Shown in pieces: positions 2,917 to 62,686 of a stretch of DNA of 64,000 bases (positions are counted from its first letter, which is position 1; every line of letters begins with the position of its first letter). The position numbers were made by a program, and so were the translations under genes. This stretch comes from Eledone cirrhosa (Eukaryota). Where the stretch lies: the NCBI GenBank assembly GCA_964016885.1, contig OZ024752.1, positions 24,304,001 to 24,368,000 on the forward strand, in the 5' to 3' direction. The notes under the pieces are model-generated. The model saw nothing but the letters and a program-made list of their open reading frames with translations. It did no database searches and had not been told where the DNA came from.

Positions 2917-3010
2917 ACCCCGACGGCTGAGTTCAAGCCGTTTCGACGGCTAATTCTGGACTGAATGAAAATTTATTCTGGTATTTAAATAGCCGAGCTT
3001 ATCAAGGGGT
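2917..3010 (-). ncRNA. Type I hammerhead ribozyme, U3-A8 variant (family A)
   Basis: Reverse complement of the motif at 4855-4948. Confidence 0.7.
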
Positions 3011-4068
3011 AATTCCATATATGGTCAAAGAGACAATCACCAGGATTGGTCACATCACAAGTTAGTAGTAAATCGGTGATGGCAAATTGGTGGGGAAAGG
3101 GGTAGCTAAACCTGCCGGTAGGAGAAAAAGGGGGAGGGGCTGGAGTAGACCCATTCATGCGTTGGTAGTGCCGGCTACAGCTGGGCGTGAGGTCAAATGG
3201 AGACTGGGGAGGGGGAGGGGGAGGAATTCGAAACGGTAAATAGAACAATGAGGGGTAAAACTATAAACAGTACTGAGAGAGAAAAAAAATAAGCAAAGTC
3301 TGGTCACGAAGACTTAAGTCTCTCGCTATTGCTAGGCTAAAGAAATACATAAATAAATAAATAAACAAATAAGTGAATAAAAGAATAGATAAATATATTT
3401 AAAAATATATATAATGAAGAATAAAATACTAAAGAGACTGCCACGAAATAATAAAGGTTTCTACCCCAATCACAGGGCCAGCAACCACCCAGTGCAAGAA
3501 AGTAAACTAGTACGAGAATATAATTTAGGGTCCCGCAAAAAAATACTAGTGCTAACTCTAAGGGTACCGCCACGAAACGAAACGTCTTATACACTCTACA
3601 TGAAAGATCGTACGAAGTAAAAGTAAAGAACGGAAAATTAATACAGAACCCCCCCCCCCTCCCAAACAAACAAAAGGGAAAAAGAAGAAAGAAATACTGG
3701 ATAAACGAGAAATTAAAGCAAAGATGCCACTAAGAAATATAGAAGGCACGGTAAAAAGGGACAGCGGTCGGAGAAGGGGGCAAGTATCCGAAGTCTAACA
3801 CCTCTGCTATAAAAAGCGGAGTCAGCCAAATCTATCATAGAATAGGGGAAGGGGGTAGGGGTGTTGAAGCTACAAGGGACCGAGGGGCTACCTCGGGTGG
3901 GCGAGTAAAAGACGACGACAAAGAAAAGGAACTGGGGTAGAAGGACTAGGGAGGGATGGGGTAAGAAGGAAATATAGAGGAAGTGATAAAAGAATGTAAA
4001 AGATCTTACGTCTCCATTGGCAAGTAGGGGTTACCCAATACAAAATATGCAAGTGGGGTGTTATAGCC

Positions 4069-4753
4069 TTAGTCTACCCCCCCCCCCCCCGGGTCATTAT
4101 GGGGTTTGAGAGCGAGGTAAGTCCTACGTAATCGGTGTTTACATGCAGTAACCAGTTCATCTTTCTTGTTTAGGAGTTGGGCCGTCGAAAACAGCATTTG
4201 TAAAGTTTCCTCCGAGCATAAATTGCACGGACGGCGTCCTCCCGTGTAAGAGTTGGCTCTGGACAGTAATTTCCAAGTGAGATCATAGTTGATGCTGTTG
4301 TCCTTGAGGTCCCATATGTGGCCCGAAAGTGTAGTGGCGTGACGCCGGGCCGGGTTTCGGAAGGTATGTCTGTGTTGGTATAGCCGGGTCTTGAAGTCAC
4401 ATGCGGTTAATCCTATATAAGCTTTGTTGGAGGTGTCCGTGCTCACGTTGCACTGGTAGATCACATTACGGTCTCTGCATCTGTTGTCGAGGGGGCAACT
4501 GGATCTATCAGGACAATTGCACCTCCTCGTCGGCTCTCCACTGCTATTTGGGTTGTTTCTTCCATCGGGGTTGAGTTTTTTGTTGTTGGAGGAGACGATG
4601 TTTTGTGCGAAGTTAGGTGTAGTGTGGTAAGAGAGTTTGATGGTATTTTGGTTAATTATGTTGTGGTAGCGGTGTTGTGGTGGGAAGTGTTTTTCAATGA
4701 GCCTAAAGAAAATTTTCCCGATGGGAGTTGTCACCTCGGCGTTGTGGGGAGGA
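4069..4753 (-). pseudogene. 5'-truncated PLE A fragment (linker, Cys-rich knuckle, GIY-YIG endonuclease)
   Basis: CNCPDRSSCPLDNRC, VIYQC..YIGLT, FKTRLYQH, CNLCSEE; near-identical to C-terminus of 5762-7279. Confidence 0.88.
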
Positions 4754-4854
4754 TTTTATAGCAGAGGTGTTAGACTTCGGATACTTGCCCCTTCTCCGAC
4801 CGCTGTCCCTTTTTTCCGTGCCCTCTATATTTCTCTTTGACCATATATGGAATT

Positions 4855-4948
4855 ACCCCTTGATAAGCTCGGCTATTTAAATACCAGAATAAATTTTCAT
4901 TCAGTCCAGAATTAGCCGTCGAAACGGCTTGAGCTCAGCCGTCGGGGT
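4855..4948 (+). ncRNA. Type I hammerhead ribozyme, U3-A8 variant (family A, 5' pLTR)
   Basis: acccc UUGAUAA gcucggcua..uagccguc GAAA cggcu-ugagcuc-agccg UC ggggu; stems I, II, III all pair; predicted cleavage after C4943. Confidence 0.75.
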
Positions 4949-60100: not shown

Positions 60101-61020
60101 AATTAGGTATATAATAAATAAAACAGATATTGTATTTTATCAATAGCAGAATATAATTATATGCAAATAGAAATCAAAATTAATACATATACATATACAT
60201 ATACATACACATATATATATATATATACATATATATATATATATATACACATATACACACATACATACACATACATATACATACATACATATACATATTT
60301 TTTCAAAAATTGCAAAGAATATATTAACTAGGTATACATCCAAAACACATCCCATTCTATGATTACATGACACTCTGCAATCCGTCTGTATAAGGATACT
60401 AATTTTAAGCCAATTAAATTAAATTTTTAGGTTGACTAAATTTAAAACCAAATTATAAATATATTTCTAAAATGTATATTAATTAGGTCTATAATACTAA
60501 AAAATATTTCTCTGTCATTGGATACACGATATTATATATATACATATATATATATATATACATATATATATATACATATATATATATATATATACATAGA
60601 TATATATACATATATATATACATATATATATATATATATATACATATATCTACATATATATATACATATATATATATATATATACACATATATATAAATA
60701 TATATATATATATATATATATATATATATATATATATATATATATATATATATATATATATATATATACATACATATATATAAATATATATATATATATA
60801 TATATATATATATATATATATATATATATATATATATATATATATATATATATATATATATATATATATATATATATATACATATATATATATACGTATA
60901 TATATACATACATATATATATATATACATATATATATATATACATATATATATATATATATATACATATACATATATATATATATATATATATACATATA
61001 TATATATACATATATATATA

Positions 61021-61710
61021 TTGGAATAAATGCTCTGAAATAGCGATATATATGTGAATATAGACATAGAATATTCGAAAATATTCTGTATGTTTATAAT
61101 AAACATTTTGAAGACCTAATCGCTATAGAATAGAATACGTCACGTATTACAATTAGATTCTCGATAAAAGCAAGGGAAGTAATCTACGCGTTTCATTCTC
61201 GTTAGAAATCATCAGGACTACATATCCAGTGCTTTTATCGAGAATGACACAGCTAGAGACTTATAGAATACTTAGCTGTGTACAGGAACTGGTTTGAAAG
61301 AGCGGTTGCCGGTCCGGCAGAAATTAGAAATTGGAATAAATGCTCTGAAATAGCGATATATATGTGAATATAGACATAGAATATTCGAAAATATTCTGTA
61401 TGTTTATAATAAACATTTTGAAGACCTAATCGCTATAGAATAGAATACGTCACGTATTACAATTAGATTCTCGATAAAAGCAAGGGAAGTAATCTACGCG
61501 TTTCATTCTCGTTAGAAATCATCGATAAAAGCACTGGATATGTAGTCCTGATGATTTCTAACGAGAATGAAACGCGTAGATTACTTCCCTTGCTTTTATC
61601 GAGAATCTAATTGTAATACGTGACGTATTCTATTCTATAGCGATTAGGTCTTCAAAATGTTTATTATAAACATACAGAATATTTTCGAATATTCTATGTC
61701 TATATTCATA
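61021..61710. mobile_element. Retrozyme-like repeat, 310-bp period (1.6 units, minus) with inverted arm 61522-61710
   Basis: 61021-61213 repeated at 61331-61523; then inversion; HHR 61179-61221(-), truncated 61489-61523(-), 61542-61584(+). Confidence 0.85.
61542..61584 (+). ncRNA. Minimal type I hammerhead ribozyme (310-bp unit)
   Basis: guaguc CUGAUGA u-uucu-aacg-agaa-u GAAA cgcg UA gauuac. Confidence 0.83.
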
Positions 61711-61992
61711 TATATATATATATACATAAATATAGAAAAATATATATAAATATATATACATATATATATATACATATATATATATATACATATATATATA
61801 TACATATATATATATATATATATATATATACATATATATATACATACATATATATATATATATACATATATAAATATATTTATATATATATATATATATA
61901 TATAAATATATATATATATATATATATATATATATATATATATATATATATATATACACACACACATATATATATATATATATATATATATT

Positions 61993-62686
61993 TAATACAA
62001 TATCAGAGATAGTTTAAAGCTAAACTCTGACTGGTAACCATCTCACTCAACAAACATTAGGTTATATTAAAATATAAACCCAATTTAAGTGTTTGGGGTG
62101 CTAACAATATGTATAATGTGGAAAAACCAGTTGTATTATTTTATGAGATATAATTAAAGTTAAAGTATATCTCTCTTTCCAAACAATTGTTTCATTCATT
62201 ATAACTTTTCTACAGGTTTGGGAGAATATTTCCAGTTTATGTAGAAGCCTAATATATATTCATGTAAGAATATATTTAGGTGGGCACTTATAAATCATCA
62301 GTGGAAGCCCATTAAACATTGATATAAGAAAACAATTTCTTACCGCTGTCAAAAATCATGTCCGTAAAGTAGCTCTCTCTTGCCTCGAATGACCGCCAAA
62401 TTTGAAATTCTAGCAGTTTTTGACTGAGGAAGTATCATAGCGACACGAAGCGGGAAGGGGAGACAACTCACGAAATGAGGAAAAAAATAATATACACGCG
62501 GGTTAATTAGTTTTTTTGAAAACATTATCAATCCAACGTGTTTAAGAACTCAATTGAAAGTAAAAAAATAAATATATGCTTGTATAAATTACACACGCAT
62601 ATAGATATTTTCTTAGGCTAAATCAGAAGTTGTACCCGAATAAGAACCGCTTCTCATAACCGCAGTAAATGCAGAAAGTTATGCTA
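61993..62686 (-). mobile_element. Second, truncated copy of the ~1-kb HHR-bearing element; HHR at 62177-62306 has a 4-nt duplication next to GAAA
   Basis: Collinear with 24019-24712; uucca CUGAUGA..GAAA caauug UU uggaa retained. Confidence 0.7.

What the first reader, a model, noticed from the sequence alone, without database searches (positions are those of the whole stretch)
2917..62306. Ten unrelated hammerhead families (~38 motifs) in 64 kb: a PLE plus retrozyme ecosystem sharing (TA)n targets
Seen: HHR motifs in PLE families A (5), B (2), C (1), D (4) and in non-coding families: 485-bp (2), 420/466-bp (3), palindrome (2), ~1-kb element (2), 660-bp satellite (15), 310-bp (2 plus 1 truncated). 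The families share only the catalytic core. The non-coding ones copy PLE insertion hallmarks: partial tandem repeat, inverted arm and (TA)n flanks. Known: PLE pLTRs carry minimal HHRs and metazoan non-LTR retrozymes are thought to be PLE-mobilised. Inference: autonomous Naiad-like PLEs here support a diverse set of ribozyme-bearing parasites.
Basis: partly seen in the sequence, partly recalled or inferred. Interest (0 to 1): 0.85.

Follow-up and report, generated by a model that had tools for sequence, protein, structure and literature searches.

The report
Nested Penelope and retrozyme hammerhead cluster
This animal DNA is a TA-repeat field packed with four Penelope-like jumping genes and six non-coding repeat families that all carry a self-cutting hammerhead RNA motif, a partnership already proposed in print, though several motifs here have an unusually long second arm.

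Summary
The count is right: 38 type I hammerhead motifs in ten families, plus a decayed eleventh. A strict descriptor finds 24, against at most 1 in 60 shuffles. Rfam finds none at its thresholds. The coding elements are Hydra-clade Penelope-like elements (PLEs), not Naiads. Five non-coding families have ORF-free units of 310-996 bp and no homology to the four resident PLEs. Four of these five fold as strongly self-paired circles (z -3.7 to -7.0). Their insertions end, like the PLEs', shortly past the cut site in (TA)n. The 420/466-bp family gives about 100-fold more read depth than the PLE-B ORF and occurs under two more species labels. Best reading: non-LTR retrozymes mobilised in trans by Hydra PLEs and piled into one TA field. 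That partnership is already proposed in print. Less usual: six of ten families have a 50-116-nt helix II domain (published Hydra loops are 3-10 nt), and one retrozyme joins a PLE 2-9 nt past its cut site. Cleavage, expression and circles are untested. No genome or RNA run was available.

The parts
2825..8458 (.). PLE-A (Hydra clade): inverted 5'-truncated arm 2825-4755 (-) plus partial tandem 4756-8458 (+); unit 3498 bp; ORF frameshifted; hammerheads at 3005-, 4860+, 8358+ with U3-A8 core, 54-nt helix II domain, long helix III
8731..12369 (.). PLE-A' subfamily, inverted pair of truncated copies; hammerheads at 8830- and 12187+ (U3-A8); helix III G-C becomes A-U in 8830
12385..13145 (+). 485-bp non-coding unit, 1.57 copies; hammerheads at 12502 and 12987 (50-nt helix II domain, weak helix I); ends 88 nt past the cut in (TA)n
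14117..17872 (-). PLE-B (Hydra clade), unit 3182 bp, frameshifted ORF; hammerheads at 14419 and 17601 with 85-nt helix II domain
17873..19151 (-). 420-bp non-coding unit in partial tandem (first unit has a ~500-bp insertion); compact hammerheads at 18332 and 17912; the second joins PLE-B 2-9 nt after its predicted cut (17882) with no TA spacer
19655..20190 (.). Palindromic pair of short 3' ends, hammerheads at 19753- and 19991+; unit length unknown; arms end about 56 and 161 nt past the cut
20800..21270 (-). 466-type copy of the 420 family (82% identical), hammerhead at 20962, 32-bp inverted arm at its 5' end
24020..25070 (-). ~996-bp non-coding unit with 64-bp terminal direct repeat; hammerhead at 24321 with branched 96-nt helix II domain
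25101..25308 (-). Eleventh family, decayed motif at 25207 (position 8 of the core is C); its 3' half recurs at 13853-13904 (+)
25752..35900 (-). ~657-bp tandem array, 15 hammerheads (59-nt helix II domain); 6 of 15 pass the descriptor; copies 92-98% identical
36335..40953 (.). PLE-C (Hydra clade) split by an inversion; 1.5-kb 3' UTR; compact hammerhead at 40850+
40975..60533 (.). PLE-D (Hydra clade), tandem and inverted copies, unit 6540 bp with 3.6-kb microsatellite-rich 3' UTR; stop-free 814-codon frame at 54217-56658 (-); hammerheads at 41316-, 50167+, 50610-, 57150- with 116-nt helix II domain
61057..61706 (.). 310-bp non-coding unit: 1.5 copies on - (hammerhead at 61215, upstream copy truncated in its core) plus inverted arm on + (61548)
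61992..62684 (-). Second, 5'-truncated copy of the ~1-kb family (88% identical); hammerhead at 62301 disturbed by extra bases before GAAA

Best explanation
The window is one long (TA)n field repeatedly hit by Hydra-clade Penelope-like elements, whose RT-endonuclease targets (TA)n, and by non-coding hammerhead RNAs (non-LTR retrozymes) that borrow that machinery. Steps: (1) a tandem copy is transcribed [inferred]; (2) hammerheads cut, mostly as dimers through the palindromic helix III, and monomers may be ligated to circles [inferred from PMC4209133, PMC7229834]; (3) the PLE protein nicks (TA)n and starts reverse transcription inside the RNA, 16-320 nt past the cut site, often with 1-4 bases shared with the target [ends shown; enzyme inferred]; (4) copying runs past one unit on a circle or an uncut multimer, giving partial tandems, and may invert [structures shown]; (5) each insertion leaves or brings TA runs, so later ones nest [one nested case shown]. 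The 657-bp array is probably a retrozyme seed later expanded at the DNA level. The long helix II domains are tolerated structured inserts that hide the motifs from standard searches.
For: Motifs far above chance. Hydra diagnostics in all four PLE families (against PMC8557442 section 11). Five units of 310-996 bp have no ATG frame above 73 codons even read as circles and no match to PLE A-D beyond TA/TG low-complexity runs. Four of 5 units fold as circles at z -3.7 to -7.0, while 13 of 14 control pieces lie between -1.7 and +2.5; the exception is the PLE-D pLTR at -3.1. Of 19 terminal motifs, 18 reach (TA)5 within 250 nt of the cut, against 34% of random positions (copies not independent). Bases shared with the TA run at 3' ends average 2.3 against 0.86 by chance (11 ends, p 0.0005; the 4 non-coding ends alone p 0.047). 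In run X1 the 420 family bins show depth 718,000-883,000, against 990-15,700 over the PLE-B ORF and 22,700-44,600 over its pLTRs; the family is also seen in runs X5 and X6 of other species labels. At 18307, 99.8% of X1 depth has the base that makes helix III a perfect palindrome. Helix II domains of 50-116 nt fold at z -4.0 to -6.6 in the 485, 1-kb, satellite and D families.
Against: No cleavage, transcript or circle was shown. Depth is not copy number and only one non-coding family was laid; the contrast is smaller in X5 and X6. The satellite unit is not self-paired (z -0.4) and 9 of its 15 motifs have a weakened helix II. Helix II inserts of A and B fold only weakly better than shuffles (z -2.4 to +0.1). 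Two-sided covariation is scarce: one G-C to A-U in A' helix III and one U-G to G-U in the 420/466 helix I; D shows only A-U to G-U changes and B's three differences include two broken pairs. In the one PLE tested in vitro, hammerhead cleavage was not needed for insertion and priming was not homologous to the target (PMC11167929). Only four PLE families were available for comparison.
Confidence: 0.68

Rival explanations
1. The non-coding families are 3' ends or internal deletions of further Hydra (or other) PLE families lying elsewhere in the genome. They are by-products of 5' truncation, some later duplicated as DNA tandems, not RNA parasites with their own cycle.
For: PLE-B depth falls from 23,000-45,000 at the pLTRs to about 1,000 at the 5' ORF, so truncated ends are the usual product. 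PLE-C and D have 1.5- and 3.6-kb 3' UTRs. The palindrome and the eleventh family have no tandem junction and fit this well. The compact 420 and 310 motifs (U-U, 4 bp, tetraloop) match published Hydra pLTR motifs in shape. The Xenopus preprint derives retrozymes from pLTRs.
Against: Five families show the unit junction itself and it holds no ORF. The 420 family far exceeds PLE-B in depth and loose ends listed for it are TA runs or 466-type variants (only 24 of about 1,800 loose-end rows were shown). Whole-unit self-pairing is absent from PLE UTR controls except D. This rival and the best reading differ in present life cycle; a PLE origin is compatible with both.
Confidence: 0.2
2. The units are retrozymes or satellites moved by another engine (the RTE-like LINE at 1-1727, or Naiad PLEs) or spread by DNA-level processes, and sit beside Hydra PLEs only because (TA)n fields collect insertions.
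For: Hammerhead-free repeats (125-bp, 550-bp, 1.6-kb palindrome) have the same TA flanks. Naiads also prefer (TA)n. An RTE-like frame is open over 444 codons. The satellite looks like an ordinary DNA array.
Against: Inverted 5' arms, partial tandems and two alternative 3' ends (310, palindrome, 466) are PLE hallmarks (PMC8557442). None of the units ends in the (GAT)n tail of the RTE. No Naiad-type ORF is in the ORF list. Naiad mobilisation is not excluded.
Confidence: 0.1
3. The long-helix-II motifs are chance or decayed look-alikes, not ribozymes.
For: Wider spacing enlarges the search space; 3 of 30 relaxed hits look spurious; Rfam reports no match at gathering level.
Against: In A, B and D the long motif sits in the pLTR, where Hydra elements carry their hammerhead, and is the only candidate there. 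The hammerhead fold is within 0-3.2 kcal/mol of the minimum-energy fold for A, A', B and D.
Confidence: 0.05

Closest known systems
Hydra clade of Penelope-like elements (Craig et al. 2021, PMC8557442; abstract, passages, section 11, supplementary Files S1 and S2 and search hits in S4-S7 and Fig. S7 seen)
   Same: RT then C-terminal GIY-YIG; RW(K/R), DKT, CxCx5C, CxxC and CxH; (TA)n targets; pLTR hammerhead; inverted 5'-truncated arms and tails. The printed Hydra-1_Obim protein from Octopus matches family D motif by motif by eye.
   Different: The 26 published Hydra motif rows have loop 2 of 3-10 nt; A, B and D have 54-, 85- and 116-nt helix II domains. A has a U3-A8 core. Units of A, B and D are 3.2-6.5 kb against 'generally <3 kb'.
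Metazoan non-LTR retrozymes (Cervera and de la Pena 2020, PMC7229834, parts 2-4 of 6 read; Li, Clavereau and Pollet 2026, bioRxiv 10.64898/2026.07.22.740005, parts 1-3 of 5 read, supplements closed)
   Same: Non-coding tandem units with type I hammerheads, GC below 50%, self-paired circular folds, coexisting with PLEs; U-U closing helix II as in axolotl HHR_Amex2; unit sizes within the 51-972 bp range reported, except the 996-bp unit.
   Different: In Xenopus 24 of 57 families are homologous to known elements, nearly all PLEs; here none matches the four resident PLEs. These copies show PLE insertion signatures (inverted arm, tails, TA microhomology) that the parts I read do not analyse. Three families have 50-96-nt helix II domains. 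RNA not shown here.
[quoted passage not shown]
   Same: Palindromic short helix III (dimer type); U3-A8 core already reported in Schistosoma Cercyon PLEs; opposite-strand pairs 100-700 bp apart from truncated PLEs, like the palindrome family.
   Different: Family A combines U3-A8 with a long helix III and a 54-nt helix II domain, so it could act as a monomer.
Non-canonical plant PLE-X hammerheads (File S2 of PMC8557442) and the discontinuous Clec2 hammerhead (passage in PMC6765202)
   Same: Precedent for enlarged hammerheads: loop 2 of 29-35 nt in two Selaginella PLE-X elements; an insertion of several hundred nt in Clec2.
   Different: Here the enlargement recurs in six unrelated families of one animal locus and reaches 85-116 nt in B, the 1-kb family and D.

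Membership tests
Hydra-clade PLE | RT followed by C-terminal GIY-YIG endonuclease | tested here: met
   Motif order in A, B, D and across the two arms of C; Pfam GIY-YIG hit on C's C-terminal piece, E 4.5e-4, below the curated cut-off; 0 Pfam hits on 3 of 5 proteins
Hydra-clade PLE | RWK motif and DKG changed to DKT | tested here: met
   RWK in B, RWR in A, C, D; DKT in all four
Hydra-clade PLE | CxCx5C linker; CxxC and CxH around the conserved E and N; no CCHH | tested here: met
   CxCx5C, CxxC..E and CxH in all four; absence of CCHH judged by eye on the EN sequences
Hydra-clade PLE | Insertion in (TA)n and a hammerhead in the pLTR | tested here: met
Hydra-clade PLE | Falls in the Hydra clade in an RT tree | not tested
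   Reference proteins are only in a paper supplement and were compared by eye
Naiad PLE | N-terminal GIY-YIG, CxC linker, DKA, no canonical hammerhead | tested here: not met
   EN is C-terminal, DKT, hammerheads present (definition)
Type I hammerhead ribozyme | Core C3U4G5A6N7G8A9 (or U3-A8), G12A13A14, A15.1-U16.1, H17 with three helices | tested here: met
   27 of 38 pass the relaxed descriptor; 11 have defects
Type I hammerhead ribozyme | Match to an Rfam hammerhead model | tested here: not met
   0 matches at gathering level; no hammerhead among the 150 of 246 rows shown at E<=1
Type I hammerhead ribozyme | Self-cleavage after H17 | not testable with these tools
   No RNA run listed; needs an assay
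Non-LTR retrozyme | Non-coding tandem unit with a type I hammerhead, no LTR | tested here: met
   485, 420/466, 310, ~657 and ~996-bp units; the palindrome has no measurable unit
Non-LTR retrozyme | At least two consecutive complete hammerheads (Li et al. 'active' rule) | tested here: inconclusive
   Met by 485 and part of the satellite; 420's second motif has a broken helix I; 310 and 1-kb have one complete motif per tandem
Non-LTR retrozyme | Highly self-paired circular monomer | tested here: met
   4 of 5 units, z -3.7 to -7.0; satellite not; prediction only
Non-LTR retrozyme | Expressed as linear and circular RNA | not testable with these tools
   No RNA holder listed
Non-LTR retrozyme | Dispersed high copy number independent of an ORF | tested here: inconclusive
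   Supported by depth for 420/466 only; no genome held

The most novel reading that the evidence does not exclude
A structurally expanded, dimer-type subclass of type I hammerheads, with folded 50-116-nt inserts in helix II, is active and has arisen repeatedly in both Hydra PLEs and their non-coding parasites. Published descriptors and Rfam miss it, so ribozyme-bearing repeats in TA-rich invertebrate genomes are undercounted. In addition, the 420/PLE-B junction is a frozen template switch of PLE reverse transcriptase onto the ribozyme-cut 3' end of a retrozyme RNA, which would be direct genomic evidence both of cleavage in vivo and of who mobilises animal retrozymes.
Probability: 0.3. Interest if true: 0.72.

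Novelty: new variant of a known kind. Interest (0 to 1): 0.47.

Why it matters
Who mobilises animal retrozymes, and what PLE hammerheads do, are open questions: PLEs are a hypothesis supported so far by co-occurrence and pLTR homology. This locus adds a different kind of evidence, namely PLE insertion signatures on non-coding units unrelated in sequence to the resident PLEs, and names a candidate engine (Hydra clade, one stop-free frame) next to five defined RNA units, which makes trans-mobilisation testable. The long helix II motifs, if they cut, widen the natural hammerhead range and call for wider descriptors. The general picture is not new.

Tried and rejected
No genome is held, so the genome-wide census could not be run. 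No RNA holder listed; this is no evidence on expression. Rfam gave only microsatellite-driven microRNA matches. A first canonical-core descriptor found only 5-6 motifs because it barred U3-A8, a mismatch closing helix II and zero-length loop 3. Three relaxed hits (5494-, 44613-, 53603-) and one mismatch-core hit (13498-) were rejected as at shuffle level. No hammerhead was found in the 125-bp, 550-bp or 1.6-kb palindromic repeats. Alignments of 420, 1-kb and satellite units to PLE-D with p<0.05 were TA/TG runs and were rejected. One row (palindrome left arm, 14 shared bases) was a false fuzzy match and was dropped before the count; two ends without a read-through reference (C, 1-kb) were also left out. 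The joint 18578-14736 lies at simple repeats and was disregarded; no read joint for the 420/PLE-B junction was among the 15 of 154 rows shown. The metagenome scan gave 4 Hydra-like loci; 2 of 4 had a hammerhead, with helix II domains of 10 and 22 nt. Host identification failed: best named hits are 41-55% identical proteins from a clam, an argonaut, a bryozoan and a hydroid; a cephalopod host is my guess from the repeat style and comes from no call. The idea that 5' ends generally coincide with the cut site was rejected: it holds only for PLE-C. Lunse et al. 2016 could not be read. Paper searches showed no report of long-helix-II hammerheads in animal PLEs or retrozymes, nor of cephalopod retrozymes; most subscription papers are outside the library, and the preprint's supplements were closed.
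Full report
Observation. The window is 31% GC with no N and is a (TA)n field broken by repeats: 23 of 25 gaps between the elements I mapped are TA-rich tracts, the exceptions being the 420/PLE-B junction and PLE-D's own inversion. The strict descriptor gives 24 hits against 0 in 30 global shuffles, at most 1 in 30 local shuffles and 0 in the reversed sequence. The relaxed one gives 30 hits, 27 of them family members, against at most 2 in 100 shuffles. 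The descriptor was tuned after I had seen the motifs. Eleven motifs have defects: 9 satellite copies, 19753 and 62301. A one-mismatch scan adds a decayed eleventh family at 25207. Rfam reports nothing at gathering level.

The coding elements. All four families carry RW(K/R), DKT, the RT5 YRDD, CxCx5C, a C-terminal YIG, CxxC before E and CxH. These are the features that Craig et al. list for the Hydra clade, almost all of whose families insert in (TA)n and carry canonical hammerheads, whereas Naiads have an N-terminal endonuclease and lack them (PMC8557442). Hydra-1_Obim from Octopus is listed there and matches D motif by motif by eye. A and D are 48% identical over the RT; relatives at about 40% are abundant in public data. 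'Naiad-like' is therefore wrong. Only D has a stop-free frame in the window (814 codons); A and B are frameshifted and C is split by an inversion. The host is an unidentified animal, probably an aquatic invertebrate.

The ribozymes. The stretch between the two core boxes is 14 nt in C, 420/466 and 310, 26 in the palindrome, and 54, 85, 116, 50, 96 and 59 nt in A, B, D, 485, 1-kb and satellite. The 26 published Hydra rows have loops of 3-10 nt; two plant PLE-X motifs with 29-35-nt loops are flagged as deviating. The long domains fold well in 485, 1-kb, satellite and D (z -4.0 to -6.6) and weakly in A and B (z -2.4 to +0.1). The hammerhead fold costs 0-7.1 kcal/mol over the minimum-energy fold across 17 motifs tested. 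Helix III is short and (near-)palindromic in 8 of 10 families, the dimer signature described for PLE hammerheads (PMC4209133); A has a long helix III and a U3-A8 core, a variant already reported in Schistosoma. Covariation among copies is thin: one G-C to A-U in A', one U-G to G-U in 420/466, wobble-preserving changes in D, two broken pairs in one B copy. In reads, 99.8% of X1 depth at 18307 restores a perfect palindrome in the 420 helix III, so the two window copies at 17912 and 18332 are the deviants. In the satellite the core shows 1 difference in 165 site-copies against 0.028 per site elsewhere, but the base of helix II shows 0.092.

The non-coding families. Tandem junctions define units of 485, 420, about 996, about 657 and 310 bp. 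None has an ATG frame above 73 codons. None aligns to PLE A-D except through TA/TG runs. Four of five fold as circles far better than shuffles (z -5.9, -7.0, -4.9, -3.7); the satellite does not (-0.4); 13 of 14 controls lie between -1.7 and +2.5. Laying four DNA runs on 13972-19150 shows the 420 family at depth 718,000-883,000 in X1 against 990-15,700 over the PLE-B ORF, with 153-385 against 3-78 in X5 and 28-172 against 0-69 in X6. The tool warns that depth is no copy number; the hammerhead bin itself is not a simple repeat. So this family is amplified independently of PLE-B and older than one species label. The other five were not tested. The same call shows PLE-B's strong 5' truncation gradient, which means that short solo ends are the normal PLE product; the palindrome and the eleventh family may be just that.

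Insertion signature. Of 19 terminal motifs, 18 meet (TA)5 within 250 nt of the predicted cut and the satellite at 320, against 34% of random positions (copies are not independent, and short elements bias this). A ends at about +17 or +97-100, D at +70 or +207, the palindrome at about +56 or +161, 310 at +129 or +163: two alternative ends, the PLE 'tail' pattern that Frangieh et al. traced to internal RT start sites (PMC11167929). At 11 ends with a read-through reference, 2.3 bases on average are shared with the TA run against 0.86 by chance (p 0.0005; PLE ends p 0.003-0.007; 4 non-coding ends p 0.047, one false row dropped). Because insertions include sequence on both sides of the cut, the template was a circle or an uncut multimer, not a linear cut-to-cut monomer (inference). 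Partial tandems occur in five non-coding families and inverted arms in three. A 550-bp repeat sits inside a TA tract of PLE-D's 3' UTR, showing nesting, which explains the local density.

One junction stands out. On the minus strand the second 420 unit runs through its hammerhead and passes into the PLE-B pLTR 2-9 nt after the predicted cut at 17882, with no TA spacer and no remainder of the unit at PLE-B's other end. This is what a jump of PLE RT onto the cleaved 3' end of a retrozyme RNA would leave. A later deletion at a 3-base microhomology gives the same picture; it is one post-hoc case, and I put template switching at about 0.4.

Comparison. Retrozymes as PLE-mobilised, tandem, circular RNAs are described and partly tested (PMC7229834), including 16 hammerhead families in one coral genome. 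A 2026 preprint argues that they are non-autonomous PLE derivatives, and found only 1 of 9 Xenopus dimers cleaving in vitro, a caution for these motifs too. Non-autonomous PLE partners with pLTRs are also known for Chlamys. Earlier notes of this scan report similar PLE and retrozyme hammerheads in other genomes as known kinds (unchecked AI notes, not support). What I did not find in nine searches is a report of recurrent 50-116-nt helix II domains in animal PLEs and retrozymes, or of PLE insertion signatures used as evidence on unrelated retrozymes; the library lacks most subscription papers.

Verdict. It is a new variant of a known kind: interest 0.47, best explanation 0.68, most novel reading 0.3 at interest 0.72.

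Noticed in passing
window 1-1727 (+): 3' part of an RTE-like LINE: stop-free frame of 444 codons with RT and a PHD-like finger in its relatives, ending in (GAT)n before the TA field.
   Followed up: partly
window 13342-13463, 13972-14093, 21504-21627, 35979-36105, 63437-63562: A ~125-bp element in five copies (91-98% identical) between TA tracts; depth about 548,000 in X1 in its bin; no hammerhead found. Possibly a very abundant non-autonomous element.
   Followed up: partly
window 1989-2538 and 48935-49539: A ~550-600-bp repeat without hammerhead; the second copy is nested in a TA tract of PLE-D's 3' UTR.
   Followed up: partly
window 21832-23480, pieces at 23738-23919 and 62979-63168: A 1.6-kb palindromic repeat with PLE-like inverted layout but no hammerhead found; 54 bp of it also lie at 21270-21322 next to the 466 copy.
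   Followed up: no
window 38761-38813: The inverted arm of PLE-C starts about 9 nt after the position of the hammerhead cut, joined by a 7-base microhomology; would fit an RNA cut at the upstream motif only.
   Followed up: partly
window 50610-54214 (-): PLE-D carries 3.6 kb of microsatellite-rich 3' UTR, copied along with the element in four places, so it spreads its own TA-type targets.
   Followed up: partly
window 8458-8731, 40953-40975, 50371-50406, 61706-61992: Four places where two elements face each other 3' end to 3' end across one TA tract; at 50371-50406 both D copies end at the same position, 70 nt past the cut.
   Followed up: no
window about 18590-19100: A ~500-bp insertion of unknown nature in the first 420 unit; depth about 1% of the unit's.
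   Followed up: no
window 13437-13904 (+): A fragment with an internal ~140-bp duplication fused to the 3' half of the eleventh hammerhead family, whose helix III is a perfect palindrome here.
   Followed up: partly
L001 75 and 2522, L002 2506: Hydra-like PLEs from metagenome contigs carry compact hammerheads with palindromic helix III; L001 has a 127-bp terminal direct repeat.
   Followed up: yes
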